From an uncultured bacterium (GTDB taxonomy: Bacteria > Abyssobacteria > SURF-5): a DNA stretch of 64,000 nucleotides. Under the pieces are notes generated by a model that saw only the letters and a list, made by a program, of their open reading frames with translations, searched no databases and was not told where the DNA came from. The translations under genes and the position numbers were made by a program. The DNA lies in NCBI GenBank assembly GCA_964453435.1, contig CAYVQZ010000003.1, forward strand, positions 24,690 to 88,689, given 5' to 3'. Below, piece after piece: positions 34,766 to 62,738 of this stretch (its first letter is position 1; every line of letters begins with the position of its first letter).

Positions 34766-34816
34766 GGCTTTGTCCTTTGTTGTATTCGATGAAAGCGGCT
34801 TCGTTCAGCCTTTTGT

Positions 34817-41056: not shown

Positions 41057-41102
41057 TTTGTTTGCTCGGTTTGTGAATCCTTTCAGATACTTGTTTCGGC
41101 TA

Positions 41103-44100: not shown

Positions 44101-44456
44101 TGGTCGGAGGTGTGGTTCACGACCAGTTCGGTGATGACACGCAGGCCGCGCCTGTGGGCCTCCCGCAAAAACGCCCTGAAGTCGCGTATTGTTCCATACG
44201 ATGGATGGATCCCCCGATAGTAGGATATGTCATAGCCGTCATCCTTCAAAGGCGACGGGCAGAACGGCAGCAGCCAGATTGCGCCGACACCCAGGTCGTG
44301 AAGGTAGTCAAGTTTTTCGATCAGCCCCTTGAAATCACCTATGCCGTCGCCGTCGCTGTCCCGAAACGCTTTGACATGCAGTTCATAAATCACGCTGTCT
44401 TTGTACCACAGGGGATCGTCTTCCAATGCCGTTAATTCGGCCTTTCGGTCGGCCAT
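41103..44456 (-). CDS. treS: Trehalose synthase fused to maltokinase (TreS-Pep2/Mak)
   Basis: The N-terminal GH13 TreS has [29 protein letters not shown] and [10 protein letters not shown]. The C-terminal ~450 aa are kinase-like and carry [25 protein letters not shown]. Total length is 1117 aa. Confidence 0.9.
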
Positions 44457-44471
44457 ATCAACTCCTGAGTT

Positions 44472-46529
44472 CTACATGAAATAATCGAAGTCACGCTCGG
44501 TTCGAATCCGCCGCCTCACTTTGAAGATGTGAGCCGGCGCCACTTGGGGATTGACCTCCACGTAATTACTCGAGCCGTACCAGAGGTAGCGCGAATCGCT
44601 CAACAGGTCGTGCACTTGATAGGGTTGATGTAGGTCAAACCCGAAGGAGGAAACAGGGAGTTCGAGCCACCCCGCATGCGTGTGATGGGGGTCCAGATTC
44701 ACGACCACCAGGATAATGTTGGTCAAGTCGTCGGTGTGCTTGCTGTAACATATCAGTTGTTCGCTGTCTATCTCATGAAATTCGAGATTCGCGTCGCTTT
44801 GCAGCGCGATGTTTTCGCGGCGTATCCGGTTCACGCGCCTGATGATTCCCCTGAGACTGTCGGAACGCTCGATGTCCCAGTGCCTGACTTGATACTTTTC
44901 GGAATCCAGATACTCCTCGCTCCCAAACTCGCGGGCCCGGTTCTCGCACAGTTCGAAGGCAGGCCCGTAGACTCCATAATTGGAGCCGAGCGTTGCGGCA
45001 AGTATCAGGCGGGCGATGAAAGCCGGCCGTCCTCCCATCTGGAGATATTCCGTTAGAATATCCGGTGTGTTTGGCCACAGGTTAGGCCGGAAATATTCCC
45101 GCACCCCGGAATCCGAGAGGTGCGTGAAATATTCCATAAGTTCCCACTTCGTATTCCGCCAGGCGAAATACGTGTAGGACTGGCTAAATCCCGACTTGGC
45201 AAGTCGATACATCACCTTGGGGCGGGTGAACGCCTCAGAGAGAAAAACAGTCTCCGGATAGTCTCTTTTCACCCCCTCGATGAGCCATTCCCAAAAAGGA
45301 AGCGGCTTTGTATGTGGATTGTCCACTCGGAAGACACGGATACCTTTATCGATCCAGAAAAGCACGACACTCTTCAGCTCTTCCCAGAGCTCCTTCCAGT
45401 TATCGGTCTCAAAACAGAATGGGTAGATGTCTTCATACTTTTTGGGCGGATTCTCGGCGTACTGAATGGAGCCGTCCGGACGGAGCAGAAACCACTCCGG
45501 ATGCTCTTTTACATAGGGATGGTCCGGGGTACACTGAAACGCAATGTCGATCGCAACCTCGATGCCGTACTCACGGGCTTTGCGCACAAGGCTCACCATG
45601 TCGTTTATGGCGCCGAGTTGGGGATGCACGGCCATGTGTCCTCCTTCGGCGGAGCCAATCGCCCACGGACTACCCGGGTCATCCGGTTCGGCAACCGGCG
45701 CATTATTCTTCCCCTTCCGGTTTGTCTCGCCGATGGGATGTATGGGTGGCAGATAAAGCACATCGAATCCCATTCCCGCAATGTAAGGCAGGCGAGCCTC
45801 GCAATCTTTCAGGGTTCCGTGCGTACCGGGTTCGGGAGCGCAGGACCGCGGAAACATTTCGTACCAGGCGCTGAAACGCGCCCTCTCTCGGTCCACAACC
45901 ACTTGAAGCTCCTTGTACGTCGTCGCGAATGAGATGGCCTGATAGTCTGACATCAGGGATGCCAATTCATCGCTGAAGGCGACCTCCGCAACGCTGTCCG
46001 GCCGGTCGCCAGAGCGCAGCAATCCCGCATATTCGCGGAGCTTGTCCCCGGCTGACCTCGGGGCGCGCAACGCCGCTTGTTCGACCATCTCGGCGCCGAA
46101 AAGGAGATCAACCGAGACTTCGAGGCCGGCTTCGACTTTCTTCTCGAGCCCGCGCCGCCATGTCTTGAATCCGTCAACGCACGCCCGCACCGTGTATACA
46201 TATCTGCCGATATAGGCGACTTCGAAGCAACCACGCCATCGGTCATTCAGCAAAAAATGCATCGGCGTCTCGCTCCAGCTCGAGGCCGATTCCGTTCGGT
46301 AAAGCAGCGAACAGGAAAGAGAGTCGTTGCTGTCCGCAAAAATGTCGGCTTCGACAACCACTTGCTCGCCGACCGCTCGCTTTATGGGAAAACGGCCACA
46401 ATCGATTTCTGGTGTAACTCCCTCTATTACGACACGCTTACGACCTTCTTCCGGCGCCATATCCTCCCTTCCTTTTTTGAATCCGCTTCGACCGGCGCAT
46501 AACGACGATTTCATTGAAGTATAGCACAC
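44472..46529 (-). CDS. glgE: Alpha-1,4-glucan:maltose-1-phosphate maltosyltransferase
   Basis: FSAWYEMFPRS, GFDVLYLPPIHPIG and FRVDNPHTKP. The probable start is the ATG at 46460 (MAPEEGRKRVVIE). Confidence 0.9.
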   Translation of the reverse strand: MCYTSMKSSLCAGRSGFKKGREDMAPEEGRKRVVIEGVTPEIDCGRFPIKRAVGEQVVVEADIFADSNDSLSCSLLYRTESASSWSETPMHFLLNDRWRGCFEVAYIGRYVYTVRACVDGFKTWRRGLEKKVEAGLEVSVDLLFGAEMVEQAALRAPRSAGDKLREYAGLLRSGDRPDSVAEVAFSDELASLMSDYQAISFATTYKELQVVVDRERARFSAWYEMFPRSCAPEPGTHGTLKDCEARLPYIAGMGFDVLYLPPIHPIGETNRKGKNNAPVAEPDDPGSPWAIGSAEGGHMAVHPQLGAINDMVSLVRKAREYGIEVAIDIAFQCTPDHPYVKEHPEWFLLRPDGSIQYAENPPKKYEDIYPFCFETDNWKELWEELKSVVLFWIDKGIRVFRVDNPHTKPLPFWEWLIEGVKRDYPETVFLSEAFTRPKVMYRLAKSGFSQSYTYFAWRNTKWELMEYFTHLSDSGVREYFRPNLWPNTPDILTEYLQMGGRPAFIARLILAATLGSNYGVYGPAFELCENRAREFGSEEYLDSEKYQVRHWDIERSDSLRGIIRRVNRIRRENIALQSDANLEFHEIDSEQLICYSKHTDDLTNIILVVVNLDPHHTHAGWLELPVSSFGFDLHQPYQVHDLLSDSRYLWYGSSNYVEVNPQVAPAHIFKVRRRIRTERDFDYFM

Positions 46530-46641
46530 ACCTGCCGGTCGCTTCTAATGAAACGGTCCCCAGACAATCGCTCGCAACGCGGCAAAACGGGCAATCTTGG
46601 GACTCTTTCATAGCGCCTCCTGCGCACGCTTCAGAATCGGC

Positions 46642-47700
46642 TTATTGAGCGATTTGCCGGAATTCTGCGCGCATCTTCGGCAAACTGTCGGGATAGTTTC
46701 TCTGCACAAACTCGATGAGTTTCTCTCTCACGATGCATCGGAGCTCCCAGGCGCTCGATGAATCCGAGGCGCTCACAAGAGCTCGCAGCTCCACTGTTCT
46801 TTCCGTGCTGTTCGTTACCTGCAGCACGCATACCTTGCCGTCCCACTTGTCCGAGCTTTTCACAATCTGGTGCAACTGCTCCCGTATTTCCCCGGTCGGA
46901 ACGGTATAGTCGACATAAAGAAAAACTGCGCCAAGCAGGTCGGCGGAGACGCGGGTCCAGTTCTGGAACGGTTTTTCGAGAAAATAAGTGATCGGCACGA
47001 CCAAGCGTCTCAGGTCCCAGATGCGAACAACCACATATGTGAGCGTAATTTCCTCGATTCGTCCCCACTCGTTTTCGACTATGACAACGTCATCGATACG
47101 AATGGGACCGGTCATGGCAATCTGAAAGCCGGCCAAAAGCGTCGCGATCGTTCTCTGTGCCGCAAAACCGATGATGATACCCGCAATACCCGCCGAGGCC
47201 AGGATGCTGGTACCCAGTTGCCGGACTTTGTCAAACGTCATCAAGACAACAGCCAAGGCGAGCACTCCTACCACAACCATAACCACTCTTTTCAGCATCT
47301 GAATCTGTGTATGAATTTTCCGGGCTTGAAGATTGTCTTTCACGTCGACCCTGTACTGACTGAGAATGATGTCTTCCCCAACATACGCCAGCTTGATGAT
47401 AAGCCAGGCGACGGAAAGGATCAGGACGACGCTGAACGCCTGGTTGAGAAACACCCCGATGTTGGGAGAAACCGCAACCAGCGGCAGCAAAAGGTGAATG
47501 ACAACAAGGGGGATAATCACTCGCGACGGTGCGCGACAGTGCTTTACGAATGACGTGCCGAGAGTCGACTTGGTTCTTTCCGAAACTGTCCGAAAAATTT
47601 TGAAAATAACATAGTGGGCTATCAACCCCAAAACGACTGCCACACCGAGAATAACGACCGGTCGTAACAACTCTTCCCAATCCAAGAGCAGGTCTTTCAT
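46642..47700 (-). CDS. Mechanosensitive ion channel, MscS family
   Basis: The pore helix and beta-domain block is GIIIGFAAQRTIATLLAGFQIAMTGPIRIDDVVIVENEWGRIEEITLTYVVVRIWD. Several N-terminal TM segments are present. Confidence 0.9.
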   Translation of the reverse strand: MKDLLLDWEELLRPVVILGVAVVLGLIAHYVIFKIFRTVSERTKSTLGTSFVKHCRAPSRVIIPLVVIHLLLPLVAVSPNIGVFLNQAFSVVLILSVAWLIIKLAYVGEDIILSQYRVDVKDNLQARKIHTQIQMLKRVVMVVVGVLALAVVLMTFDKVRQLGTSILASAGIAGIIIGFAAQRTIATLLAGFQIAMTGPIRIDDVVIVENEWGRIEEITLTYVVVRIWDLRRLVVPITYFLEKPFQNWTRVSADLLGAVFLYVDYTVPTGEIREQLHQIVKSSDKWDGKVCVLQVTNSTERTVELRALVSASDSSSAWELRCIVREKLIEFVQRNYPDSLPKMRAEFRQIAQ

Positions 47701-48132
47701 TTTTCTCTCTCCTTGATATTTCTCCCGTCTTTCCGAGCGCCCTTATAATCAATACGCGTCAACACTCTTCTTCCGAGCGGTTTGCTTAAACTTATCGAAT
47801 TTCCAATTCGAACGCAAACAGGGCAAAGAAGGTAACGAAATGAATTCCCTGCGGGAAAAGGCAAGCGGGAACATCCTGCCAATTGGATTGCGGTTGCCAT
47901 CGGGGGTTGGGACCAACTACTCGACAAACTTGACACTTCCGCGCCGGGCTCGATAGAATGAACCATCGGAAGCCATCAGCCCCCGCTGATTCTATCTTAA
48001 ATAGAATTTAATTATTGAAAACAACCACTCTCCGGTTTTTTCCGGGCGCCTTGATCAGGGTAACGGGAGATAGCGATCAATCGTCAACAATACATTCTCA
48101 TAGTCGATGCCGATAAGCACTCGCAAAATCGA

Positions 48133-49425
48133 ATGAAGGCCGCATTGCGAGACGAAAACACCGCCTGTGATTGCGTTGCGGATTTCCTGTCGGCTGTGAA
48201 AATGCTTTCGAAGAAGACATACGACCTGGTTCTCACCGAGCTGAGCCTTCCGGACAGGGCCGGGCAAGAACTTGTCAAGTTGATAGCCGAGAAAAGCCCT
48301 TCCACTCAGATTCTTGTTGTCACATCTTCCGGCGATTCCCGTAAAGTCAGCGAATGCATGGAAATAGGGGCCTTCAATTATCTGCGCAAACCCTTCAAGC
48401 CCGGTCAGCTTCGGTTTCTGGCCAAGACGGCCTTCGACACGCAGCCGCCGAAAAGCGAAAACCTGTTTCTCGAGGGAAGGGAGGCCTTCAGCCAAACAGA
48501 CAACCTGGTTGGGAGAAGCCGGGCCATGCAGAAGGTATACGGACAGATACGCCTTGCGGCGAGCACCGATATTGATGTCCTCCTCACCGGGGAAAGCGGT
48601 ACGGGCAAAGAACTTGTGGCCCGCTCCATTCACCGCGAGAGCAAGCGGTGTGAGGGACCATTCATCGCGGTGAACACGGGCGCCATCGAGTCCAACCTGA
48701 TTTCCAGCGAACTGTTCGGACATGTGAGAGGCGCGTTCACCGGCGCCAGGAACACCCGGAAGGGAATGTTCGAGATGGCGCATGGCGGCACCCTGTTTCT
48801 CGATGAACTCAGCACAATGGACGAACAGACCCAGATAAGCCTTCTTCGCGTATTGGATAACAAGGTGATCACTCGCGTCGGCGGCTCCAAACCAATAAAG
48901 GTGGATGTGCGGATAATAGCCGCCTCAAATGCAATTCTGGAACAAGAGGTTGAATCCGCCCGTTTTCGGGAGGATGTGTATCATCGCCTGAACGTATTCA
49001 CGGTCCACATGCCGCCTCTGCGCAAGCGCACATCCGACATCAAGATTCTTGCCGCCGTCTTCGTCGACCAGTTTTCCCGCGAATTCAATAAGAATATCCG
49101 GGGCATTTCAGAAGAGGCGCTCGCGCTTCTGGAAAATTACGCGTGGCCCGGCAATGTGCGAGAATTGAAAAACTCGATTCAACGGGCTGTGTTGTTGGCT
49201 GAGAGCGATATGATCATTCCGTCCGTGCTGCCGGACCGGTTGCACAGGAAACGTGATGTCTCAACAGGGGTTGCGCTGAAAGTCGGGATGACATTGGAAG
49301 AGGCGGAGCGCGCTCTGATTGCGGCAACGCTTTCGCACGTGAACGGGAACAAGAAGAAGGCTTCGGAGATTTTGGGGATAAGCCGCAAGTGCATGTATAA
49401 CAAGATTAGCAAGTACGCCCTTTGA
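48133..49425 (+). CDS. Sigma-54-dependent transcriptional activator (NtrC/Fis family) with atypical receiver domain
   Basis: The AAA+ core has GESGTGKELVARSIH, GAFTGA and TLFLDE. The C-terminal Fis-type HTH has ASEILGISRKCMYNKI. The coordinate is the first canonical start, but the in-frame upstream codons (48064-48132) encode the receiver beta-1 strand ILIVDAD (see findings). Confidence 0.9.
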   Translation: MKAALRDENTACDCVADFLSAVKMLSKKTYDLVLTELSLPDRAGQELVKLIAEKSPSTQILVVTSSGDSRKVSECMEIGAFNYLRKPFKPGQLRFLAKTAFDTQPPKSENLFLEGREAFSQTDNLVGRSRAMQKVYGQIRLAASTDIDVLLTGESGTGKELVARSIHRESKRCEGPFIAVNTGAIESNLISSELFGHVRGAFTGARNTRKGMFEMAHGGTLFLDELSTMDEQTQISLLRVLDNKVITRVGGSKPIKVDVRIIAASNAILEQEVESARFREDVYHRLNVFTVHMPPLRKRTSDIKILAAVFVDQFSREFNKNIRGISEEALALLENYAWPGNVRELKNSIQRAVLLAESDMIIPSVLPDRLHRKRDVSTGVALKVGMTLEEAERALIAATLSHVNGNKKKASEILGISRKCMYNKISKYAL

Positions 49426-49704
49426 TTGTATATTTATTACACAGAACTCTCGAACATCGCGCCGCCGGTTGTTTTTTCCGTTATATCAGCGATTTTTGAC
49501 AGGCCAAAAAATCGGGGATGTGAAGAATGTGCTCATTTTTTTCGGATATATCGATTATGAGTATTATTTATACATACTACCCCATAATTTTCCCGCATTA
49601 ACGCCGTTCCAACTCTCCTTCCGCAGGATTTTCAACTTTTTCAAAATTAGAACCTCTTTCTTTTCACAGGGTTAGCAGAGGGGCTTCTTAAGAGACCCGC
49701 TCTT

Positions 49705-49720
49705 TGGCGCCATCCGTGCA
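49705..49720 (+). promoter_or_regulatory. Candidate sigma-54 (-24/-12) promoter
   Basis: TGGCGC-CATCC-GTGCA matches consensus TGGCAC-N5-TTGCW with correct GG/GC spacing. It lies ~98 nt upstream of the ATG at 49818 and directly downstream of the sigma-54 activator gene. Confidence 0.65.
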
Positions 49721-49817
49721 CCTTAGAGAGGGAACCTGCCATTCGAAGATTTTTTCCGTAACGGCGCACATCAAGCGCTTTGGTGTGGATTTGAGAGGAT
49801 ATTAAGGCTGGAAACGT

Positions 49818-50180
49818 ATGCCAAAGAAAATAATTCTTTTGCTCAAATCAGGAATAAAATTTGAAAACATGCTCAAGGATTACTTGAGCCAGGAGGGTTT
49901 TGAAGTTGATACCGCGGAAACCGTGGCCGAAGTCCTTTATTATCTCAAGAGGTCGCCTCATTTTCTCCTGGTCGTTGAGCAGGACACATACGAGATGGAC
50001 TGTCTGGAACTTTTTCTAAATGCTCGAGATATTCAATCGAACATCAAAGTTGTTTTCCTCGGTTCGGGTGATCCAAAAAGCAAAGACGAGATAATGAAGC
50101 TCGGAGGAATCTACCTCGATTCCCCCGTTCGGGCGGAAGTCTTCCGGGAAATCATAAACGACGTTCGTAAGGTCAAGTGA
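49818..50180 (+). CDS. Single-domain receiver-like protein with degenerate phospho-acceptor pocket
   Basis: 120 aa with CheY-like periodicity. KIILLLKSG replaces the DD pocket. FLLVVEQDTYEMDCLELFL aligns Glu with the phospho-acceptor Asp. The conserved Lys position reads LDSPV. Confidence 0.65.
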   Translation: MPKKIILLLKSGIKFENMLKDYLSQEGFEVDTAETVAEVLYYLKRSPHFLLVVEQDTYEMDCLELFLNARDIQSNIKVVFLGSGDPKSKDEIMKLGGIYLDSPVRAEVFREIINDVRKVK

Positions 50181-50280
50181 TTACCGGAAGATTGTTCGGT
50201 ATTGAGACTCGGTCTGAGTTCGCCTGGTTGGAACGTGAGGAAAAATCGGCGGAATTCAGAAACAAAGAGGAGATAAAACA

Positions 50281-50967
50281 ATGACAGAAAACGGGCTAAT
50301 CAAGGAACTCCACGCAAACGTGGTCCTCGGCCGGATAGACCGGAATGAAGATTTGTATGAGGAATTAGCCGGACGCCCCGGCGTAACCGAGTTGACCGCC
50401 CAGTGTGTGGAAAAAGGCGTGCCCACGAAACGGATTCTGGACGAGGGCCTGATCAGCGCGATGGATGAAGTCGGCGCGAAGTATGAATCGGGAGAATATT
50501 ACCTGCCGGACTTGATCGCATCGGCCGACGCCATGATAGCCGGCATGGAGATTCTCAAGCCTCTGTTACTGGAGGCTCAAATCCAATCGCGCGGCAAAGT
50601 CATCCTGGCCACCGTGGAAGGCGATGAACATGATATTGGGAAAAATCTTGTGGGCATTATGCTTCGAGCCGCCGGTTTCGAAGTAATCGATTTGGGAACG
50701 CGAGTTCCGGCGGGAGACATTGTGGAAGCGGTGGAAGAACATAAACCGAACGTGCTCGGATTGAGCGCGCTTTTGACATCCACCATGCCGCGCATGAAAG
50801 AGGTCATCGAAGCGTTGGAACGAAACAATCTCCGGAACGGCATGCGGGTGATGGTGGGCGGAGCTCCCGTTTCAAAGGAGTACGCGGATTCCATCGGAGC
50901 AGATGCATATGGAGAGGATGCGTTTGAGGCAGTAGAGCGGGCCAATGAATTGGTGGTTGTATCATGA
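50281..50967 (+). CDS. Corrinoid (B12)-binding protein, methyltransferase-cognate type
   Basis: An N-terminal helical cap is followed by a Rossmann B12 domain with the DxHxxG motif (GDEHDIGKNLV), SxL (LGLSALLTS) and GG (MVGGAPV). Confidence 0.9.
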   Translation: MTENGLIKELHANVVLGRIDRNEDLYEELAGRPGVTELTAQCVEKGVPTKRILDEGLISAMDEVGAKYESGEYYLPDLIASADAMIAGMEILKPLLLEAQIQSRGKVILATVEGDEHDIGKNLVGIMLRAAGFEVIDLGTRVPAGDIVEAVEEHKPNVLGLSALLTSTMPRMKEVIEALERNNLRNGMRVMVGGAPVSKEYADSIGADAYGEDAFEAVERANELVVVS

Positions 50968-51599
50968 TACGAACAGATGCCGACAGTTCAGGACTTGTGG
51001 TTATCGATTCGTTTGACATTCGGACCACGCCGAAATCGGTGCTCAAGAGGATGGGCAGGGGGGTCAGCGAGACCAAATGGGCAGGCGCCGTTTCAAGAGT
51101 ATTTGAACAATATTGGCCGCGAATTCAACCGCGCGGCGTGTTTCGCGTTACCATCTGCCATCCTGACGGAGATTCAATCGGCATCGGCAAAAACCTGGGC
51201 TTCAGAAGCGGATTTTTGCAGGAACGCCTCCCCTATCCGCGACTTTCGGCGATTTTTCTGGTAACCATCGGGGCTGAGTTGGAAGAAGGAATACGCGAGG
51301 AGATGCGAAAGGGCAGGAATCGCAGAGCATACATCTTGGACTGTCTCGGCTCCAACGCGGCCGAAGCGACCGCCGCGGCCATTCATCGAGCGGTCGAGGA
51401 ACAGCTTGACGTTCCAATGAGCCGATACAGCCCCGGCTATAACGATTGGGACATTGCCGAGCAACGAATTCTCTTTGATTTTCTTGGGCGGGACACGGCG
51501 AAGGAAGTGGGAGTTCGCTTGACGCACGATTTCATGATGACGCCGCAGAAGTCAGTCAGCGGCATTATCCTGCCCAGAATGGAACAAAACCCGAATTGA
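50964..51599 (+). CDS. MetH-type (vitamin B12-dependent methionine synthase) activation-domain-like protein, stand-alone
   Basis: The C-terminal block RYSPGYNDWDIAEQRILFDFLG...GVRLTHDFMMTPQKSVSGIILP matches the reactivation-domain signature as I recall it. The start overlaps the upstream stop (ATGA). Confidence 0.7.
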   Translation: MIRTDADSSGLVVIDSFDIRTTPKSVLKRMGRGVSETKWAGAVSRVFEQYWPRIQPRGVFRVTICHPDGDSIGIGKNLGFRSGFLQERLPYPRLSAIFLVTIGAELEEGIREEMRKGRNRRAYILDCLGSNAAEATAAAIHRAVEEQLDVPMSRYSPGYNDWDIAEQRILFDFLGRDTAKEVGVRLTHDFMMTPQKSVSGIILPRMEQNPN

Positions 51600-51687
51600 T
51601 TCCTATCATTCAATCCGCGTTTTCACGCTCACAGAAAACCTCGCGCAGGACGTAAGAAAAGTTGAAAGAAATGAGAGGACAGGAACT

Positions 51688-53184
51688 TTGGAACGAGCGA
51701 TTTCGAGACAGAGGTTTTTGGTAGCTGCGAGAAAAGGAATTGCAGGAGGAGCCTACAAGCCTCTGAGCGATTCCGACCTCGATAAGGTCTGCGACACCAG
51801 TTTCAGGCTCTTGGAGGAGGTCGGCGCTCTGGTGCACGAGCCCACGGCGCTCGACCTTTTCGAAAAGGCCGGGGCCAGGGTGGACCGCGCGTCCGCTGTC
51901 GTCAAGATTCCGCGCCAACTGGTGAAATCTTCCCTCAAAAGTTTACCCTCGAAGGTGACACTGTTCGGGCGAGATGAATCACACGACCTTCACCTCGAGG
52001 ATGCGCGCGTGTATGTGGGAACCGGCGGGACCGCGCTCAACGTTCTCGATTTCGGAGCCCATGAAGTTCGGCCGGCGCAACTGAGCGACCTCCGGTCCAT
52101 CTGCAAATTGGTTGACGCGCTCGACCACGTCCATTTCATCGTGATTCCCACCTATCCCAACGAGTTGGACGTCGCTTGCGTTGACGTCAATCGTTTTTTC
52201 ACGGCGTTGAGTCAAAGCTCCAAACACGTAATGGGCGGTATTTATACGCTTGAGGGTCTGCGCCAGGTCATACGCCTCGCGGAAATAATAGCCGGCGGTC
52301 CGGACGCGTTGCGAGAAAGACCGTTCATATCGGTGATCACATGTGTTATGAGTCCGCTGCGGCTTGACAGCCATTACGCGCATTTGATGATCGAGACAGC
52401 CAAGGCGGGAATACCCGTCTGTGTGCCCGCCGAGCCGCTGGCGGGCGCAACCTCGCCGATTACTCTGGCCGGCACTCTGGCGATGCAAGTTGCCGACAGC
52501 TTGGTCGGCGTCGTGTTGACACAGATAGTCAATCCGGGCACCCCGGTGATTTTCGGGTCGGTTGCCACAACGACCGACCTGCGGGACATGAAATACCTTG
52601 GGGCCTCCATCGAGAGCGGACTCTTAAACGCGGCGGGAGCCCAGGTGGCCCAGCATCTTCGGATTCCCTATTATGCGACCGCCGGAATGAGCGACGCGAA
52701 GACCATTGACGCTCAGTGCGGATACGAGGCCGCTCTCACGTTGCTGCTCACTGCGCTCTCGGGAGCCAACTACATCCACGACGCGGCCGGACTCATGGAG
52801 TTTGCGAACACGGTGAGCCTCGAGAAATACGTTATCGACGACGACATCATCGGCATGGTGATGCGGGCCGTCGAGGGGATTCGAGTGAACAAAGACACGC
52901 TGGCCTTCGACGCCATTCGAAGGGTTGGACCCGGCGGCAATTTCCTCGCGGAGCGGCACACGGCGAAACACATGAGGAAAGAGCACTACATGCCGACAGT
53001 CGCCGATCGCTCCCGGCGCGACCAGTGGCTCGCCGCAGGCACGAAAGACGCATACGCGCGAGCACACGAGAGGGCGATGCTGTTGCTCGAGTCCCACACG
53101 CCCGCGGCTCTGTCGAACGATGCCCTCTCGCGAATACGGGCAGAGTTTTCGGAAGTCCTTGCGGACGGCAACGAGGAGAGCTGA
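51688..53184 (+). CDS. MttB-family (trimethylamine methyltransferase superfamily) corrinoid methyltransferase, non-pyrrolysine, paralogue 1
   Basis: TTG start, 498 aa. The N-terminal block is LSDSDLDKVCDTSFRLLEEVGALVHEPTALDLFEKAGARVD. It also has GTGGTALNVLD and the C-terminal GPGGNFLAERHT. There is no in-frame stop. Confidence 0.85.
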   Translation: MERAISRQRFLVAARKGIAGGAYKPLSDSDLDKVCDTSFRLLEEVGALVHEPTALDLFEKAGARVDRASAVVKIPRQLVKSSLKSLPSKVTLFGRDESHDLHLEDARVYVGTGGTALNVLDFGAHEVRPAQLSDLRSICKLVDALDHVHFIVIPTYPNELDVACVDVNRFFTALSQSSKHVMGGIYTLEGLRQVIRLAEIIAGGPDALRERPFISVITCVMSPLRLDSHYAHLMIETAKAGIPVCVPAEPLAGATSPITLAGTLAMQVADSLVGVVLTQIVNPGTPVIFGSVATTTDLRDMKYLGASIESGLLNAAGAQVAQHLRIPYYATAGMSDAKTIDAQCGYEAALTLLLTALSGANYIHDAAGLMEFANTVSLEKYVIDDDIIGMVMRAVEGIRVNKDTLAFDAIRRVGPGGNFLAERHTAKHMRKEHYMPTVADRSRRDQWLAAGTKDAYARAHERAMLLLESHTPAALSNDALSRIRAEFSEVLADGNEES

Positions 53185-53994
53185 GTGATTGTTATAGGAG
53201 AGAAAATCAACGCCACGCGAAAATCCGTGAAGCACGCGTTGAAAGAGAAGAATCTGGATTTCATACGACAGCTCTGCGGCGAACAGGATTCGGCCGGAGC
53301 GGACTATATCGATGTGAACGTCGGCGCCGGCGAAGACGACGTCGACTTCGAGACAAGAACAATGGTGTGGCTTGTGAAGGCGCTCGAAGAGGTAACAGAA
53401 AAACCTCTTTGCATCGACAGCGCAAATCCGGCCGTGATCGAGGCTGGCGTGAAGGCCTGCACGCGGGCAAAGCCCATGATTAATTCAGTGAACGGAACAG
53501 ATTCGAGAATGGACGCCATCTTCCCGCTTGCCTCCGAGTGCGGATGCCCCGTCATTGCGCTCGCCATGAACGAGGAGGGAATACCGGCCACACCCGAAGA
53601 ACGCGTCTCCATTTGCAGGCAAATTCTGGAACGCGCCAGTTCGTATGAGATTCCGAACGAAAACCTCTTATTCGACCCGCTCGTGCTGCCACTGTCCACG
53701 GGAGAACAACAAGGAACGATAACTCTCGACACGATTTCCCTTCTGAAAAGCTCACTGGACGGAGTGCGAACCGTGGTGGGCCTGAGCAACATATCGTTCG
53801 GGCTGCCTCACCGCTCGCTCATCAACGGAGCGTTCCTCGTATTGGCGATCGGGCGTGGGGCCGACGCGGCGATTTTCGACCCCACGAACGCGAAACTGCT
53901 CTCGCAACTGCGGGCCGCAGAGGTGGTAGCGGGCAGTGACCGCAGATGCCGGCGCTACACCCGCGCTCACAACACCGGCCAATTGACTGATTAA
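53185..53994 (+). CDS. Pterin-binding methyltransferase (methylcorrinoid:tetrahydrofolate methyltransferase, MtgA/AcsE/MetH pterin-domain-like)
   Basis: The GTG start immediately follows the upstream TGA. Motifs are IGEKINATRKSV, DYIDVNVG, CIDSANP, INSVNG and GLSNISFGLP. Confidence 0.85.
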   Translation: MIVIGEKINATRKSVKHALKEKNLDFIRQLCGEQDSAGADYIDVNVGAGEDDVDFETRTMVWLVKALEEVTEKPLCIDSANPAVIEAGVKACTRAKPMINSVNGTDSRMDAIFPLASECGCPVIALAMNEEGIPATPEERVSICRQILERASSYEIPNENLLFDPLVLPLSTGEQQGTITLDTISLLKSSLDGVRTVVGLSNISFGLPHRSLINGAFLVLAIGRGADAAIFDPTNAKLLSQLRAAEVVAGSDRRCRRYTRAHNTGQLTD

Positions 53995-54002
53995 GGAGAA
54001 CC

Positions 54003-55535
54003 ATGAGAGGTGTTATGTCCCGAAAAATGAAGACAGAGACGATTCAAAGGCAGGGAGTTCTCGTTGACCCGTACAGACGATTGACGAGTCGACAAATCAG
54101 GGCCATACATGAGGCTTCCCTCGATATCCTTTGGGAAGTCGGAATAACGTGCAACAACCCGAGGATTATCGAGTTGTTGGCCGCGAACGGAGCGGCGATT
54201 GACAGAAAGAACGGCGAAACGGTGGCGAAGCTTCCCGCAAAGCTCGTCGCGCAAGCCGTGGAAAGTTCTCCCCGCGCCGTCGTGCTCGGCGCGCGCAACC
54301 CCGATAATCGTTTGATTCTTGATGCGCGGGAACCACGAGTGAGATTTGGCACAGGCTCGGAGACGAATATATGGCTGAGCCTGGAATGGGAGAACAACAC
54401 TATCCCCGGCTTCCGCGAGCATCGGGGAACTCTCGAGCGACTCTGCAAGTCCGCCCGTTTGTGCGACCACTTGGAGTCGGTCGATTTTTTCATCCGGAAC
54501 GTGAACATTCAAGACGAGAACATAGACGATGATAACAAGGATGTCAACGTCTTCTTTGGCAGCCTCAGCAATATAACCAAGCATGTAATGGCAGGTATTA
54601 ATAATGTGGAAAAACTGGCGGACGTGGTTCGAATGGCCGAACTCATAACAGGCGGCGCCGATGCTTTTCGGGCCAACCCGATTATTTCTTTCATCACCTG
54701 CGTCATCAAGAGTCCGTTGCAGTTGGTCGATGACACGGCGGACAAGTTGGTGGCGATAGCCGAGCGGGGCATACCGCTTGTTATCTCTTCGTCTCCCCAG
54801 GGCGGCGCAACGGGGCCGATTGACGAGGGGGACATGGTCGCGATGATTAACGCCGAAATCCTTGCCGGCGTCCTCCTTGCCCAGCTTGTCCGGCCGGCGG
54901 CGCCGGTGCTGTATGGCGCTGTGCCCGCGCGAGCGCGAATGGACACCCTGCACAACATGTATGGAGCGCCCGAGACGAACCAGTACAACATTGACTGCGT
55001 TCAGATGGCGCGATTCTACGATATTCCGTGCTATTCGACCGCCGGGGTGAGCGACGCCGCGATACCGGGCATTCAAACGACGATGGAGAAGATGTTGTCC
55101 CATCTGAGCGTAACGATGAGCGGACCCCAGTACCTGCACTATGCCTTCGGCCTGCTCGACAAAACCAACATCTTCTGTCCGGCGCAGGCAGTGCTCGACG
55201 ACGCGCACATCGCAGCGGTCAAGCATTTCTGCCGCAAGCCGGAAATAACCAAAACAAGCCTGAACAAAGGCGTCGCTCAGCTCAAACAGGTGATGGATTC
55301 CTCTCACAAACTTTTCGCGAGATACGCCCGGAAGGGAATGCGGTCAGGCGCTATCTCCCGACCCTACCCGTTCGAAGCCGCCGCGCTCGAGGACACGACA
55401 CTGTTCCAGGCCGATTCCGTCGCGCGCGAACTGATGGAAAAGACCGTGGAACCGATTCCCGACGATGTCGTGGAGAGAATCTTCGCGGCGCTCCCGGGAA
55501 TCGTGTCCCAACTGAAGCCGGCGCTGAGAGAATGA
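54003..55535 (+). CDS. MttB-family corrinoid methyltransferase, non-pyrrolysine, paralogue 2
   Basis: AAGGAG RBS, 510 aa. It is collinear with paralogue 1 (IRAIHEASLDILWEVGITCNNPRIIELLAANGAAID; STAGVSDA) but only ~30% identical by eye. Confidence 0.85.
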   Translation: MRGVMSRKMKTETIQRQGVLVDPYRRLTSRQIRAIHEASLDILWEVGITCNNPRIIELLAANGAAIDRKNGETVAKLPAKLVAQAVESSPRAVVLGARNPDNRLILDAREPRVRFGTGSETNIWLSLEWENNTIPGFREHRGTLERLCKSARLCDHLESVDFFIRNVNIQDENIDDDNKDVNVFFGSLSNITKHVMAGINNVEKLADVVRMAELITGGADAFRANPIISFITCVIKSPLQLVDDTADKLVAIAERGIPLVISSSPQGGATGPIDEGDMVAMINAEILAGVLLAQLVRPAAPVLYGAVPARARMDTLHNMYGAPETNQYNIDCVQMARFYDIPCYSTAGVSDAAIPGIQTTMEKMLSHLSVTMSGPQYLHYAFGLLDKTNIFCPAQAVLDDAHIAAVKHFCRKPEITKTSLNKGVAQLKQVMDSSHKLFARYARKGMRSGAISRPYPFEAAALEDTTLFQADSVARELMEKTVEPIPDDVVERIFAALPGIVSQLKPALRE

Positions 55536-56803
55536 GTGGTGATTCCATGGATTCCGGTTCCGCATACACCGAAGCCGTCAACACGGGTCAGTACCAGAAA
55601 GACCAGGGCCTGGTTAAAAAGTACGACAACGTCCGCATCTACTGGGAAGATGAAATAACGCGACATTTTGTTCGCCCGCACATCGAGCGGATGACGATGG
55701 AAAAAGAGCAGCGCCTCGAGCGGTTGCGGATTCTCGATTTGGGATGCGGCAGCGGTGACGGGTTCGAGTTGCTCAAAGGCGTTCGCCGGAAAGACAACAA
55801 TCTCACGACACAGGAGATCTACGCCATCAACGGCGAAGACCTCGGCCTCTATCTCGGGTTGGACAACAATGCGGCCCTTATTGAACAGGCAAAACAGGTC
55901 CACGGGAGTAATCGCAAGCTCGACTTCGTTCAGGGCGACTTCTCAGAACTCACGAAAACCGTGAAGGATTACGGACCCTTCGACCTTTTCTTCAGCTCGT
56001 ACGGAACGATGTCTCATTGCACTGATGAACAGTTTGTCGAGCTAATGGTACAGATCGCCGAACTGTGCGGAGACTATGGGCTGGTCGTGTGCGATTGGCT
56101 CGGGCGCTACGTGTACGCGTGGCAGAACCTGTGGGACAGCGACCTTTCGCAAAGCCAATTCATGGATTACCGTATTTCCTATATCTACCCGGATGACATG
56201 AGGGACAAACTGCAAATAGAGAGTTTCCCGCTCAAGCTCATGAGCCCCGATGAGGTCCACCGGCTTATCGAGAAGGCAAACGAGAAAGCGGAAAAGCAAT
56301 TCGACCTGCTCAGGCTTGCGGACCGCTCCATCTTTGTCAGTCGCCATATGGACACCGGCGACTATAACAGTAGCTGCCAGCCGATACGGCGCCGCGTTAA
56401 TTCGCTGCATGAAGACTTTCTCCGCACGCCGCTCGAACAATTGATTATCGACTATTATCCAAAGCCCGGATTCGCCGAGGTCAACTCCTACCTCGAACGG
56501 CTTCAAATAAGCTGGAACACGCTGGTGAAATACACGATGTTTCTTTTGGACAATTACGACCGCGACACCGAGACGTTTCGAGAGGACAAACCCCTTTCCG
56601 GCGATTACCCCCGGGTGCTCGCGAAAAATATGCAGGAAATGAAAAAGGTAATCCAGGGCACCGGATGGATACAGACCGGCGACGTGAGGGCGAACATCAT
56701 CGAGCCGCAGCTTGGCTATGCTCTCAGGCAGCTCGAGATCGAGTTGCAGGAAGGACTGGGTGTGGGCCATGGCCTGGTTGCGATACTGGAAGTCCACAAG
56801 TAA
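55532..56803 (+). CDS. Large class I SAM-dependent methyltransferase-like protein (423 aa), function unknown
   Basis: The ATG at 55532 overlaps the MttB-2 stop (ATGA). Motif I is LRILDLGCGSGDGFELL, post-I is LGLDNN, motif II is DFVQGDF, and motif III is FDLFFSSYGTMSHC. The ~200 aa C-terminal region is not recognised. The track ORF start at 55028 lies inside MttB-2 and is rejected. Confidence 0.75.
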   Translation: MSGDSMDSGSAYTEAVNTGQYQKDQGLVKKYDNVRIYWEDEITRHFVRPHIERMTMEKEQRLERLRILDLGCGSGDGFELLKGVRRKDNNLTTQEIYAINGEDLGLYLGLDNNAALIEQAKQVHGSNRKLDFVQGDFSELTKTVKDYGPFDLFFSSYGTMSHCTDEQFVELMVQIAELCGDYGLVVCDWLGRYVYAWQNLWDSDLSQSQFMDYRISYIYPDDMRDKLQIESFPLKLMSPDEVHRLIEKANEKAEKQFDLLRLADRSIFVSRHMDTGDYNSSCQPIRRRVNSLHEDFLRTPLEQLIIDYYPKPGFAEVNSYLERLQISWNTLVKYTMFLLDNYDRDTETFREDKPLSGDYPRVLAKNMQEMKKVIQGTGWIQTGDVRANIIEPQLGYALRQLEIELQEGLGVGHGLVAILEVHK

Positions 56804-56818
56804 CCCCTTTTTCCATTC

Positions 56819-57985
56819 ATGATAGAACTGAAAGACGTTTCAAAGGTCTATCCTGACAATCAGCCCGCCGTAAAGAACTTCTCTCTCACCGTGGCAGACG
56901 GAGAGACCGTCGTTCTCATCGGCTCGAGCGGATGCGGGAAGACAACGACACTGAAAATGATCAACAGGCTCATCGAGCCCACCTCCGGCGAGATATATAT
57001 CAACGCAGAAAACATACTCAAGCTGAGCCCCGTTGCCCTGCGTCGCGACATCGGTTACGTCATCCAGCAGATCGGACTGTTCCCGCACATGACAATCAGA
57101 GAAAACGTCGAAATCGTGCCATCCCTTCTGGGCTGGCCGGAAGACCGCCGCCGCAGCCGCTCCCACGAGTTGATGAGCCTTGTGGGCCTGGCGCCCGACG
57201 TGTACTCCGACCGCTTCCCCCATGAGTTAAGTGGCGGACAGCAGCAACGGGTGGGGGTCGCCAGGGCGCTTGCGGCCGACCCGCCGACTCTCCTGATGGA
57301 CGAGCCGTTCGGCGCGCTGGACCCGATCACCCGGCGCGACATCCAGGAGGAATTTCAAACTCTGAAACGGGAAATCAAAAAGACAATCGTCTTTGTCACT
57401 CACGACATTATTGAAGCGGTGACTCTCGGAGACCGAATCGCGGTCATGAATAAGGGGAAATTGATTCAGTTGGGGTCCGCACACGAAATACTGTCTCATC
57501 CCGCCAATCCGATGGTCGAAAAAATCATCGGCCACCAGCGGTTTCAGCTCACCTTGAGCTCGGAGAACATCGAGACAGCGGCGGACACCGACATCGCGAC
57601 GGTCTCGGCAAAATTCCTTGAAAAACCGGTGGAAGACGCGCGTAATCTTATGAGAAAACGCCGGACCGGGATATTGCCCGTAGTTGACGAACAAGAACGG
57701 GTAGTCGGTGTGTTGACGGATGAACGCTTGTCGCGCGCGAATGAGAACGAAACCCTCAACGAGGTGATTCAGCCGCCTCCGCACACAATCGATAGCGACA
57801 CCAGCCTCCTTACGGCGCTCAATCTGATGATTGAAAAAGACGTGCAGATGTCCGTGCTGGTAAACAGGGATGGAAAGTTCGGGGGAATTCTGTCACGAAA
57901 GAGCCTGCTCGGAACAATCGCAAACTTATTCGATGCCGAGGGCTCGGACAGCGCCAAAACGAAGAGAGTTACGGGGAAACCATGA
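56819..57985 (+). CDS. Osmoprotectant (betaine/choline/carnitine-type) ABC transporter ATP-binding protein with C-terminal tandem CBS domains
   Basis: Walker A is GSSGCGKTT, signature is LSGGQQQRV, and Walker B is LLMDEPFGALD. The ~130 aa C-terminal CBS-like region has ILPVVDEQERVVGVLTDE and VLVNRDGKFGGILSR. Confidence 0.9.
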   Translation: MIELKDVSKVYPDNQPAVKNFSLTVADGETVVLIGSSGCGKTTTLKMINRLIEPTSGEIYINAENILKLSPVALRRDIGYVIQQIGLFPHMTIRENVEIVPSLLGWPEDRRRSRSHELMSLVGLAPDVYSDRFPHELSGGQQQRVGVARALAADPPTLLMDEPFGALDPITRRDIQEEFQTLKREIKKTIVFVTHDIIEAVTLGDRIAVMNKGKLIQLGSAHEILSHPANPMVEKIIGHQRFQLTLSSENIETAADTDIATVSAKFLEKPVEDARNLMRKRRTGILPVVDEQERVVGVLTDERLSRANENETLNEVIQPPPHTIDSDTSLLTALNLMIEKDVQMSVLVNRDGKFGGILSRKSLLGTIANLFDAEGSDSAKTKRVTGKP

Positions 57986-59523: not shown

Positions 59524-59554
59524 ACGGTGAACGTACTTTGCAGACGGAAAGGAG

Positions 59555-61051: not shown

Positions 61052-61204
61052 CATGTGGCCGGTGGGCGCAGCATGAGTGGCAACGAGAGTGTTCAAATCG
61101 TCGCGACAAGAATTCATCATAATCACGAATCATAAATACGGCAGGCCGCGCCGACAGTTGACGGAGGGGCCCGCAGTTCGCCGATTGGAAAGGAGCATCG
61201 AACA

Positions 61205-62686: not shown

Positions 62687-62738
62687 CTTTTAACATGGCC
62701 TTTCGAGCGGATGTCCGCACCCCGAATGATAGACGTCA

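What the first reader, a model, noticed from the sequence alone, without database searches (positions are those of the whole stretch)
49705..49720. Well-spaced -24/-12 element linking the activator to the corrinoid/MttB array
Seen in sequence: TGGCGC-N5-GTGCA has GG and GC at exactly the consensus spacing. It sits in a 392-nt AT-rich intergenic region, ~98 nt upstream of the first gene of the array and 280 nt downstream of the sigma-54 activator gene. An imperfect palindrome GATTTTTG-N6-CAAAAAATC (49491-49513) lies ~200 nt upstream of it, a plausible activator-binding position. Established knowledge: sigma-54 promoters need strict GG-N10-GC geometry and a bound upstream activator. Inference: the whole 49818-63638 array, or at least its first part, is sigma-54 dependent. 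That would be unusual for quaternary-amine methyltransferase operons.
Basis: partly seen in the sequence, partly recalled or inferred. Interest (0 to 1): 0.5.

Follow-up and report, generated by a model that had tools for sequence, protein, structure and literature searches.

The report
Conserved sigma-54 promoter before betaine-methyltransferase operon
The short DNA motif is very likely a real sigma-54 promoter, switched on by the neighbouring activator protein through three conserved binding sites, that drives a small regulator-like gene and most likely the glycine-betaine-type methyltransferase and transporter genes behind it; this is an ordinary kind of bacterial switch, here in a little-studied uncultured lineage.

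Summary
TGGCGC-N5-GTGCA lies at 49705-49720, in a 392-nt intergenic region (43% GC), 279 nt after the activator gene and 97 nt before the next ATG. On its own the motif is not above chance: the window has 11 two-mismatch matches against about 16 expected. Its conservation makes the case. All 10 orthologous loci I recovered (activator 60-74% identical) have exactly one -24/-12 element, 66-99 nt before the same small gene. The core has 0.72 pairwise identity in DNA that has otherwise diverged to 0.28-0.30. The likely activator sites are TGTGTA-N5-TACACA palindromes centred near -140, -180 and -272. The first gene downstream is a 120-aa CheY-like receiver without the phospho-acceptor Asp, not a methyltransferase component. 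The activator's own receiver also has Glu at that position, and no kinase gene lies nearby. The corrinoid/MttB/pterin-methyltransferase/OpuA genes follow in every locus where the downstream DNA is visible, and I found no promoter or terminator between them. I could not check for rpoN. A 2025 survey already predicted sigma-54 control of MttB in Clostridia. Verdict: a real feature and a new member of a known kind.

The parts
47930..47959 (+). Sigma-70-like promoter (TTGACA-18-TAGAAT, 11 of 12) upstream of the activator gene; the likely promoter of the activator
   Evidence: a consensus match only, conservation not examined
48076..49425 (+). NtrC-family sigma-54 activator (receiver + AAA+ with GAFTGA + HTH_8). 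The first canonical start is ATG 48133 (430 aa). Orthologues are about 456 aa, and the frame stays open and receiver-like back to 48064, so translation may start at ATC 48076, 6 nt after GGGAG.
   Evidence: Pfam; sequence; orthologue alignment (Glu at the phospho-acceptor position, GAFTGA invariant); identical in a second assembly
49427..49443 (.). Distal activator site UAS1, TGTATATTTATTACACA (1 mismatch from TGTGTA-N5-TACACA), centred at -271 from the GG
   Evidence: an equivalent site is present in 8 of 10 loci (7 of the 8, plus L092), centred -270 to -286, and -316 in L090
49491..49513 (.).
   Evidence: sequence; nothing equivalent at this position in 7 other loci
49519..49535 (.). Middle activator site UAS2, TGTGAAGAATGTGCTCA (degenerate, 3 mismatches), centred at -179
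   Evidence: a site at -177 to -182 is found in 7 of 10 loci at up to 3 mismatches
49558..49574 (.). Proximal activator site UAS3, TGAGTATTATTTATACA (2 mismatches), centred at -140
   Evidence: present at -138 to -143 in 10 of 10 loci
49675..49684 (+). Degenerate copy (AGGGTTAGCA) of a semi-conserved TTGACTTAta block found 28-37 nt upstream of the TGGC in other loci; role unknown
49705..49720 (+). -24/-12 sigma-54-type promoter element TGGCGCCATCCGTGCA; the predicted transcription start is about 49730-49732
49818..50180 (+). First gene behind the promoter: a 120-aa stand-alone CheY-like receiver lacking the phospho-acceptor Asp (Glu54), the acidic pair and the conserved Lys
   Evidence: No Pfam hit; family of 21 clusters; alignment; AlphaFold2 pLDDT 83.8; Foldseek matches to Spo0F, CheY and NtrC1 receivers with TM 0.80-0.87
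50281..50967 (+). Corrinoid (B12-binding) protein, MtgC-like
   Evidence: Pfam PF02310 and PF02607
50964..51599 (+). Stand-alone protein similar to the MetH activation domain (putative cobalamin reactivation module)
   Evidence: Pfam PF02965
51688..53184 (+). MttB-family methyltransferase 1, without pyrrolysine; closest solved relative is D. hafniense glycine betaine methyltransferase MtgB
   Evidence: Pfam PF06253; 2QNE/9YCE at E = 3e-81
53185..53994 (+). Pterin-binding methyltransferase (methyl-corrinoid:tetrahydrofolate type, MtgA/MtgD-like)
   Evidence: Pfam PF00809
54003..55535 (+). MttB-family methyltransferase 2 (divergent paralogue)
   Evidence: Pfam; 2QNE at E = 2e-37
55532..56803 (+). 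423-aa protein with a weak SAM-methyltransferase-like domain
   Evidence: gene call in L081
56819..59523 (+). OpuA-type glycine betaine ABC transporter (ATPase with CBS domains, then a permease fused to the substrate-binding domain)
   Evidence: Pfam PF00005, PF00571, PF00528, PF04069
59555..63638 (+). Two asparagine-synthase-like genes and an MscS channel gene on the same strand; possibly the tail of the same transcription unit
   Evidence: Pfam; an AsnB-like gene also follows OpuA on the 16 kb contig carrying P0127

Best explanation
The element at 49705-49720 is a functional sigma-54 (-24/-12) promoter. The activator encoded just upstream probably binds as dimers to three TGTGTA-N5-TACACA palindromes centred about 140, 180 and 272 bp upstream of the GG. 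It then assembles into an AAA+ ring, loops the intervening DNA, contacts promoter-bound sigma-54 RNA polymerase through its GAFTGA loop, and uses ATP to open the promoter. Transcription should start near 49731 and read first through a small Asp-less receiver gene (49818-50180). It most likely continues into the corrinoid protein, MetH-type reactivation module, two MttB-family methyltransferases, pterin-binding methyltransferase and OpuA-type transporter genes. This would put an MtgB-type glycine betaine (or related quaternary amine) demethylation system under sigma-54 control. What is shown: the motif, its conservation, the palindromes and their fixed spacing, the domain make-up of the proteins and the gene order. 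What is inferred: binding of this activator to these sites, sigma-54 dependence, the extent of the transcript and the substrate. The activator's receiver carries Glu in place of the phospho-acceptor Asp and has no partner kinase gene nearby. The input signal is therefore probably not classical phosphotransfer, and the co-conserved small receiver may modulate the activator. That last point is speculation.
For: (1) One and only one GG-N10-GC match at up to 3 mismatches lies on the coding strand in each of 10 of 10 orthologous intergenic regions, 66-99 nt before the ATG of the same small gene: TGGCAT/TGGCAC/TGGCGC-N5-(G/A/C)TGC(A/G). (2) The promoter core has mean pairwise identity 0.72, against 0.30 in the 120-nt spacer and 0.28 downstream. 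It is a conserved island in diverged DNA. (3) In shuffles, the chance of such a match per locus is 0.06-0.16 anywhere and 0.009-0.023 in the observed distance band. (4) The palindromes sit at fixed offsets: -138 to -143 in 10 of 10 loci, about -180 in 7 of 10, and -270 to -316 in 8 of 10. The chance of the observed number at up to 2 mismatches is 0.01 or less in every locus. In the 64 kb window, 2 of only 3 such matches fall in this one intergenic region, against 0.44 expected in the whole window. (5) The activator has the Sigma54_activat domain (E = 3e-66), an invariant GAFTGA loop and an HTH_8 domain. (6) The order activator, promoter, small receiver, corrinoid gene holds in every locus where the downstream DNA can be seen. 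The full array order is repeated on a 16 kb contig. The one apparent exception, L082, is a 100-N scaffold gap inside a corrinoid gene. (7) No terminator-like, sigma-70-like or second sigma-54-like site lies in the gaps between genes, and the gap between the small receiver and the corrinoid gene shows no conservation beyond the ribosome-binding site. (8) The motif is asymmetric: the invariant GG has no mirrored CC.
Against: There is no experimental start-site or expression data. rpoN is not in the window, and I could not search for it in the genome. The window's copy is the weakest of the ten -24 elements (TGGCGC rather than TGGCAY), and its middle palindrome is degenerate (3 mismatches). The window's activator gene has no ATG, GTG or TTG start that would give a complete receiver, so the activator may be altered or defective in this organism. 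The ten loci share ancestry, so the shuffle probabilities are not independent trials. Co-transcription of the array rests on the absence of signals in simple consensus scans.
Confidence: 0.75

Rival explanations
1. The sigma-54 promoter is real but serves only the small receiver gene. The corrinoid/MttB/OpuA array would then have its own unrecognised promoter in the 58-170 nt gap behind the small receiver gene, so the methyltransferase genes would not be directly sigma-54 dependent.
For: The unit that is always adjacent is activator, promoter and small receiver. The gap of 100 nt in the window folds into fairly stable hairpins (-27.8 kcal/mol in the window, -38.4 in L086). The small receiver has a weak ribosome-binding site while the corrinoid gene has a strong one, which is compatible with separate expression levels.
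Against: The gap has no sigma-70-like or sigma-54-like match and no hairpin followed by a T-run, in the window or in other loci. It shows no sequence conservation apart from the ribosome-binding site. The corrinoid gene follows the small receiver in every locus where it can be seen.
Confidence: 0.15
2. The promoter and sites are ancestral and functional in relatives, but the switch is altered or dead in this organism. The activator gene has lost its canonical start codon, and the -24 element and middle palindrome are degenerate. The array would then be silent, or constitutively or otherwise expressed.
For: There is no ATG, GTG or TTG between the stop at 48061-63 and ATG 48133, although the frame encodes the receiver's first strand. 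Orthologues are about 26 aa longer. The window has TGGCGC where the others have TGGCAY, and its -179 site has 3 mismatches.
Against: The whole reading frame is intact, with all AAA+ and HTH motifs. A Shine-Dalgarno-like GGGAG lies 6 nt before ATC 48076, so a non-canonical start is plausible. In some NtrC-family activators, loss of the receiver activates rather than kills the protein (from my own knowledge of NtrC1 and DctD). The GG and GC doublets are intact.
Confidence: 0.07
3. The conserved GCAC-N5-GTGC core is a symmetric binding site for some other dimeric regulator, or the match is chance, and a sigma-70 promoter drives the genes.
For: Parts of the motif are self-complementary (GCAC...GTGC; GCAT...ATGC in L086). 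A semi-conserved TTGACT-like block lies 28-37 nt upstream in several loci. The motif alone is not enriched in the window.
Against: The invariant TTGG on the left has no mirrored CCAA on the right; only 3-5 of 7 positions are symmetric. No sigma-70-like hit on the + strand lies within the intergenic region upstream of the small gene; the only + strand hit there overlaps the activator's stop codon. The GG-N10-GC geometry is kept in 10 of 10 loci, next to a sigma-54 activator gene and its palindromes.
Confidence: 0.03

Closest known systems
NtrC/DctD/AtoC-type sigma-54 promoters with tandem upstream activator sites (for example glnAp2 and dctA)
   Same: A -24/-12 element with GG-N10-GC. Dyad-symmetric activator sites lie 100-300 bp upstream, two of them about 40 bp (four helical turns) apart. 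The activator has a receiver, an AAA+ domain with GAFTGA and a Fis-type HTH, and its gene lies next to its target.
   Different: The receiver has Glu instead of the phospho-acceptor Asp and no kinase gene is adjacent. The first regulated gene is another Asp-less receiver. The target is a corrinoid-dependent methyltransferase system, and the host appears to be an uncultured Hydrogenedentota-type bacterium.
MtgB/MtgC/MtgA glycine betaine:tetrahydrofolate methyl-transfer systems (Desulfitobacterium hafniense; the MtgBCD system of Ruegeria pomeroyi, PMC12478193)
   Same: A non-pyrrolysine MttB-family methyltransferase (best solved match MtgB, E = 3e-81), a corrinoid protein, a pterin-binding methyltransferase and a cobalamin reactivation module, together with a betaine-type transporter.
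   Different: There are two MttB paralogues. The reactivation module is a stand-alone MetH-type activation domain rather than a RamA/RamQ-type activase. The substrate is not established. None of the papers I read on these systems describes sigma-54 control.
Predicted sigma-54 regulation of MttB (COG5598) in Clostridia (PSSM survey, PMC12316311)
   Same: A computational link between sigma-54 promoters and MttB-family genes.
   Different: That survey covers a different phylum and gives no activator, activator sites or operon anatomy in the passage I read. It also describes MttB as a B12 biosynthesis enzyme. The present case is supported by phylogenetic footprinting of both the promoter and the activator sites.
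Aspartate-less receiver domains and the NtrC D54E phosphomimetic (from my own knowledge; no paper was retrieved here)
   Same: Receiver folds that keep the Thr/Ser and aromatic switch residues but lack the phospho-acceptor Asp. In NtrC, Glu at that position is known to mimic the phosphorylated state.
   Different: Here the Glu is the natural conserved state in both the activator and a separate small receiver encoded behind the promoter. The functional consequence is untested.

Membership tests
Sigma-54 (-24/-12) promoter | GG and GC doublets exactly 10 nt apart, within a match to TGGCAC-N5-TTGCW | tested here: met
   The window has TGGCGC-CATCC-GTGCA, 2 mismatches. The nine other loci have 1-3 mismatches with GG and GC intact.
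Sigma-54 (-24/-12) promoter | Located upstream of a gene, on its strand, in non-coding DNA, and conserved in orthologous regions | tested here: met
   10 of 10 loci, 66-99 nt before the ATG. Core identity is 0.72 against about 0.29 in the flanks.
Sigma-54 (-24/-12) promoter | A cognate enhancer-binding protein with a GAFTGA loop, and upstream binding sites | tested here: met
   The adjacent activator has PF00158 and an invariant GAFTGA. Conserved palindromes lie at -140, -180 and about -272. Actual binding was not tested.
Sigma-54 (-24/-12) promoter | rpoN present in the genome | not testable with these tools
   rpoN is not among the window's genes. The support is indirect only: an intact, conserved activator, and a second GAF-type sigma-54 activator in L082.
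Sigma-54 (-24/-12) promoter | Transcription start about 12 nt downstream of the GC, dependent on the activator and ATP | not testable with these tools
   Needs 5'-end mapping and genetics.
NtrC-family two-component response-regulator activator | AAA+ sigma-54 interaction domain plus a C-terminal Fis-type HTH | tested here: met
   PF00158 at E = 2.7e-66 and PF02954 at E = 6e-12.
NtrC-family two-component response-regulator activator | Receiver domain with a phospho-acceptor Asp | tested here: not met
   All 8 orthologues have Glu (YDLVLTEL) where paralogues have Asp (YDLIITDY). The Thr/Ser, Tyr and Lys switch residues are kept.
NtrC-family two-component response-regulator activator | A partner histidine kinase, usually encoded next to it | tested here: not met
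   No kinase gene lies within the flanks of the window, L082, L083, L085 or L088. A distant kinase cannot be excluded.
CheY-like single-domain response regulator (the 120-aa first gene) | (beta-alpha)5 receiver fold | tested here: met
   AlphaFold2 pLDDT 83.8 and pTM 0.80 with five strand-helix units. Foldseek TM 0.80-0.87 to Spo0F, CheY and NtrC1 receivers. hhalign probability 96.7% to the activator's receiver.
CheY-like single-domain response regulator (the 120-aa first gene) | Acidic pocket (DD pair and phospho-acceptor Asp) and the conserved Lys | tested here: not met
   The family has an invariant Glu54 in LLIVEQD, Lys or Gly where the DD pair should be, and Ser in YLDSP where Lys is expected. 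No Pfam hit at E of 0.001 or less.
MtgB-type glycine betaine:corrinoid methyltransferase system | A non-pyrrolysine MttB-family enzyme plus a corrinoid protein plus a methyl-corrinoid:THF methyltransferase | tested here: met
   PF06253 appears twice as uninterrupted ORFs, with PF02310/PF02607 and PF00809. The best solved relative is MtgB, 2QNE/9YCE.
MtgB-type glycine betaine:corrinoid methyltransferase system | Glycine betaine as the substrate | not testable with these tools
   Only suggested by the adjacent OpuA-type transporter (PF04069) and the similarity to MtgB. MttB-family enzymes use several different quaternary amines.

The most novel reading that the evidence does not exclude
The activator, with its natural phosphomimetic Glu receiver, and the small Asp-less receiver that it induces could form a phosphorylation-independent regulatory circuit. 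The small receiver might pair with the activator's receiver to shut off or tune ring assembly (feedback). Alternatively, one of the two pseudo-receivers might sense the quaternary-amine or cobalamin status directly. Such a pair would be a previously undescribed way of controlling a sigma-54 promoter, confined to a small uncultured lineage (21 protein clusters among 5.8 billion).
Probability: 0.2. Interest if true: 0.55.

Novelty: new member of a known kind. Interest (0 to 1): 0.35.

Why it matters
How bacteria regulate MttB-family quaternary-amine methyltransferase operons is poorly documented. These enzymes matter for osmolyte turnover, for methane precursors in sediments and for trimethylamine balance in the gut. 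This locus provides a defined promoter, three candidate activator sites and a dedicated activator, all of which can be tested directly with reporter fusions and gel shifts. It extends a purely statistical prediction made for Clostridia to a second, uncultured phylum and supplies the actual anatomy. The two receivers without a phospho-acceptor Asp also offer a compact natural system for asking how a sigma-54 activator is controlled without phosphorylation.

Tried and rejected
(1) A genome-collection scan with the activator returned only paralogues of about 40% identity, none with MttB genes nearby. (2) The first metagenome scan, with the small-receiver alignment, gave 600 pattern matches but no true relative. 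A longer back-translated pattern later found 2 loci. (3) An Rfam scan of 47000-52000 at E of 1 or less found nothing, so no known riboswitch or leader RNA lies in the intergenic region or the 5' UTR. (4) MAFFT on the whole intergenic regions misaligned the window's promoter. Promoter-anchored ungapped comparison replaced it. (6) L082 as a locus where the activator and small-receiver pair lacks the array: rejected, because a 100-N scaffold gap interrupts a corrinoid gene there. (7) A symmetric transcription-factor site instead of a -24/-12 element: rejected on asymmetry. (8) IHF: I looked by eye for WATCAANNNNTTR between the proximal site and the promoter and found no consistent match. The semi-conserved TTGACTTAta block remains unexplained. 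(9) Literature searches for sigma-54 with MttB, MtgB or Hydrogenedentes found nothing specific, apart from the Clostridia survey. Assignment to Hydrogenedentota rests on a 70%-identical orthologue from a MAG of that phylum.

Full report
OBSERVATION. TGGCGC lies at 49705-49710, followed by CATCC and then GTGCA at 49716-49720. The GG (49706-07) and GC (49718-19) doublets have the canonical sigma-54 spacing. The motif differs from TGGCAC-N5-TTGCA at two positions. It sits in the 392-nt gap (49426-49817; 43% GC against about 53% for the window) between a sigma-54 activator gene and the next gene. It starts 279 nt after the activator's stop codon and ends 97 nt before ATG 49818. The motif alone is not statistically remarkable. 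The window holds 11 matches at up to two mismatches against 16 expected. A perfect consensus (TGGCACGAGGTTTGCA, 16973-16988, minus strand) lies inside a pseudouridine synthase gene. In shuffles of the intergenic region, a match with GG and GC intact on this strand appears with probability 0.07 anywhere and 0.0085 within 55-110 nt of the ATG.

GENE CONTEXT. The upstream gene (ORF listed as 48133-49425) has a receiver domain, a Sigma54_activat AAA+ domain (E = 3e-66) and an HTH_8 domain. Downstream, all on the + strand with short gaps, come the following genes:
- a 120-aa ORF with no Pfam hit (49818-50180);
- a corrinoid protein;
- a stand-alone MetH-type activation domain;
- an MttB-family methyltransferase;
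- a pterin-binding methyltransferase;
- a second MttB paralogue;
- a methyltransferase-like protein;
- an OpuA-type ABC transporter;
- two asparagine-synthase-like genes;
- an MscS channel.
MttB1 is closest to the D. hafniense glycine betaine methyltransferase MtgB among solved structures (2QNE/9YCE, E = 3e-81). MttB2 is more distant. This is the make-up of MtgB/MtgC/MtgA(D)-type betaine demethylation systems (PMC12478193). Rfam finds no known RNA element between 47000 and 52000.

COMPARATIVE TEST. A genome-collection scan with the activator found only paralogues of about 40% identity, with no MttB genes nearby. A protein search showed a sharp orthologue group at 64-74% identity, followed by a drop to 47%. 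One orthologue is from a Candidatus Hydrogenedentota MAG. Contexts for these orthologues and for homologues of the 120-aa ORF, plus two metagenome contigs found with a back-translated pattern, gave ten loci including the window.

In all ten loci, the activator gene or its 3' end is followed after 280-370 nt by exactly one GG-N10-GC element on the coding strand:
- window: TGGCGCcatccGTGCA
- L082: TGGCATcatatGTGCA
- L083: TGGCACcatatGTGCA
- L085 and L091: TGGCACccttcGTGCA
- L086: TGGCATtagaaATGCG
- L088: TGGCATcaaatGTGCA
- L089: TGGCACggtatGTGCG
- L090: TGGCACcgtttCTGCA
- L092: TGGCACcaaatGTGCA
Where the start codon is defined (9 of 10 loci; L090's was not assigned), the element lies 66-99 nt before the ATG of the small ORF. 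In a promoter-anchored alignment of eight loci, the 16-nt core has mean pairwise identity 0.72. The 120-nt spacer upstream has 0.30 and the 5' UTR has 0.28. The element is therefore a conserved island in DNA that has otherwise drifted to near-random similarity. Because the loci share ancestry, the per-locus shuffle probabilities should not simply be multiplied. The contrast with the flanks is the stronger argument.

ACTIVATOR SITES. The same regions contain dyad-symmetric TGTGTA-N5-TACACA sites at fixed offsets from the GG. One is centred at -138 to -143 in 10 of 10 loci. One lies near -180 in 7 of 10 at up to three mismatches. One lies just after the activator's stop codon (-270 to -316) in 8 of 10. 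In the window these are 49558-49574 (2 mismatches), 49519-49535 (3 mismatches, degenerate) and 49427-49443 (1 mismatch). Shuffles reach the observed number of sites at up to two mismatches with probability 0.01 or less in every locus. In the whole 64 kb window, only three such matches exist against 0.44 expected, and two of them are in this intergenic region. The two proximal sites are 39-41 bp apart, about four helical turns, as is usual for NtrC-type tandem sites (from my own knowledge). I conclude it is not the activator site. A further semi-conserved block (TTGACTTAta, 28-37 nt upstream of the TGGC; degenerate in the window) remains unexplained.

WHAT THE PROMOTER DRIVES. The gene immediately behind the promoter is always the small ORF (55-73% identity across loci). 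Its family is tiny: 21 clusters in a 5.8-billion-protein collection. An AlphaFold2 model (pLDDT 83.8, pTM 0.80) has five strand-helix units. It matches Spo0F, CheY and NtrC1 receivers with TM 0.80-0.87. The family has an invariant Glu where the phospho-acceptor Asp should be (LLIVEQD). It has no acidic pair, and Ser in place of the conserved Lys. It is therefore an Asp-less stand-alone receiver.

The corrinoid gene follows it in every locus where the downstream DNA can be seen: the window, L086, L087, L088, L089, L090 and the 16 kb contig carrying P0127. That 16 kb contig repeats the full order through OpuA and an AsnB-like gene. L082 looked like an exception, but a corrinoid gene starts there and is cut by a 100-N scaffold gap. 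Within the window's array, no terminator-like or sigma-70-like site on the + strand falls in a gap between genes. The gap between the small receiver and the corrinoid gene has no second sigma-54 motif and no conservation beyond a strong ribosome-binding site. Co-transcription is therefore the simplest reading, but it is inferred, not shown.

THE ACTIVATOR. All eight orthologues carry Glu at the receiver's phospho-acceptor position (YDLVLTEL), where paralogues have Asp (YDLIITDY). They keep the Thr/Ser, Tyr and Lys switch residues and an invariant GAFTGA loop. No histidine kinase gene lies in the flanks of five loci. In NtrC, Asp54 to Glu is a known phosphomimetic (from my own knowledge). This activator may thus be held in an on-like state and controlled in some other way, perhaps by the small receiver it induces. 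hhalign aligns the small receiver to the activator's receiver, Glu on Glu (probability 96.7%, 18% identity). This is a hypothesis only.

In the window, the activator's frame has no ATG, GTG or TTG that would include the first receiver strand. The frame nevertheless encodes that strand (…QQYILIVDAD…) after a GGGAG at 48065-69 and ATC at 48076. A second assembly is identical. The start is either non-canonical or the receiver is truncated in this organism.

WHAT COULD NOT BE TESTED. The indirect support is the intact, conserved sigma-54-contact machinery of the activator and a second, GAF-type sigma-54 activator gene in L082. The transcription start, the activator's DNA binding, the extent of the transcript, the inducer and the substrate all need experiments.

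COMPARISON WITH KNOWN SYSTEMS AND NOVELTY. The anatomy is that of a standard NtrC-family sigma-54 promoter with tandem upstream sites, and the target is an MtgB-type methyl-transfer system. The papers I read on these systems do not describe sigma-54 control. However, a 2025 PSSM survey lists MttB (COG5598) among predicted sigma-54-regulated groups in Clostridia (PMC12316311), so the general link is not new. New here are a footprinted promoter and activator-site architecture in a Hydrogenedentota-type lineage, and the conserved pairing of two Asp-less receivers with it. I rate this as a new member of a known kind, with moderate interest (0.35). The circuit hypothesis is the most novel reading not excluded by the evidence (probability about 0.2).

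Noticed in passing
window 48061-48135: The activator gene has no ATG, GTG or TTG start that would include the first strand of its receiver domain, although the frame is open and encodes it (REIAINRQQYILIVDADKHSQNR-M). GGGAG at 48065-69 followed by ATC at 48076 suggests a non-canonical start. Orthologues are about 26 aa longer than the ORF called from ATG 48133. The sequence is identical in a second (Logan) assembly.
   Followed up: partly
window 48133-48500 (activator receiver); alignment A3: The phospho-acceptor Asp of the activator's receiver is replaced by Glu in all 8 orthologues, while the Thr/Ser, Tyr and Lys switch residues are kept. No histidine kinase gene lies nearby in any locus.
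   Followed up: partly
window 16973-16988 (minus strand): A perfect sigma-54 consensus, TGGCACGAGGTTTGCA, lies inside the coding region of a pseudouridine synthase gene (16687-17430, minus strand) on the same strand. It could be chance or an intragenic sigma-54 site.
   Followed up: no
window 49675-49684; L082, L086, L088 and L089 at 28-37 nt upstream of their TGGC: A semi-conserved block, TTGACTTAta, lies between the activator sites and the -24 element in most loci and is degenerate in the window. It is not a clean IHF consensus and its role is unknown.
   Followed up: partly
L082 12385-12484 (CP070779.1, Candidatus Hydrogenedentota MAG labelled as complete): A run of exactly 100 N interrupts a corrinoid gene that starts right after the small receiver gene. 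On the other side is the 3' part of an ACT-domain gene. The methyltransferase array therefore seems to be missing from this assembly at a scaffold join.
   Followed up: partly
window 47930-47959: A near-consensus sigma-70-type promoter (TTGACA-18-TAGAAT, 11 of 12) lies upstream of the activator gene, followed by a small hairpin at 47975-47990.
   Followed up: no
window 49790-49817 compared with 50262-50280: The small receiver gene has a weak ribosome-binding site, while the corrinoid gene behind it has a strong one (AAGAGGAGA). The same contrast appears in other loci, so different translation levels from one transcript are plausible.
   Followed up: no
window 30470-47700 and 62739-63638: The array is flanked by a large trehalose and alpha-glucan gene cluster (MalQ, amylase-family genes, GH57, GlgB-like, TreS-maltokinase fusion, GlgE) and by two MscS-type channel genes. 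Together with OpuA this gives the region an osmoadaptation flavour.
   Followed up: no
window 3803-6058 (minus strand) and 9452-16625 (plus strand): Four paralogous proteins of about 750-800 aa have a C-terminal sulfatase domain and an N-terminal part of about 310-370 aa with no Pfam hit. Three are in tandem, among glycosyltransferase genes.
   Followed up: no
window 59555-62686: Two tandem asparagine-synthase-like genes follow the OpuA transporter. An AsnB-like gene also follows OpuA on the 16 kb contig carrying P0127, so this unexpected association with the methyltransferase array is conserved.
   Followed up: no
window 25340-26833: A B12-binding radical SAM gene on the + strand overlaps a longer-looking minus-strand ORF (25322-26713) that has no Pfam hit. 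The + strand reading is probably the real gene.
   Followed up: no
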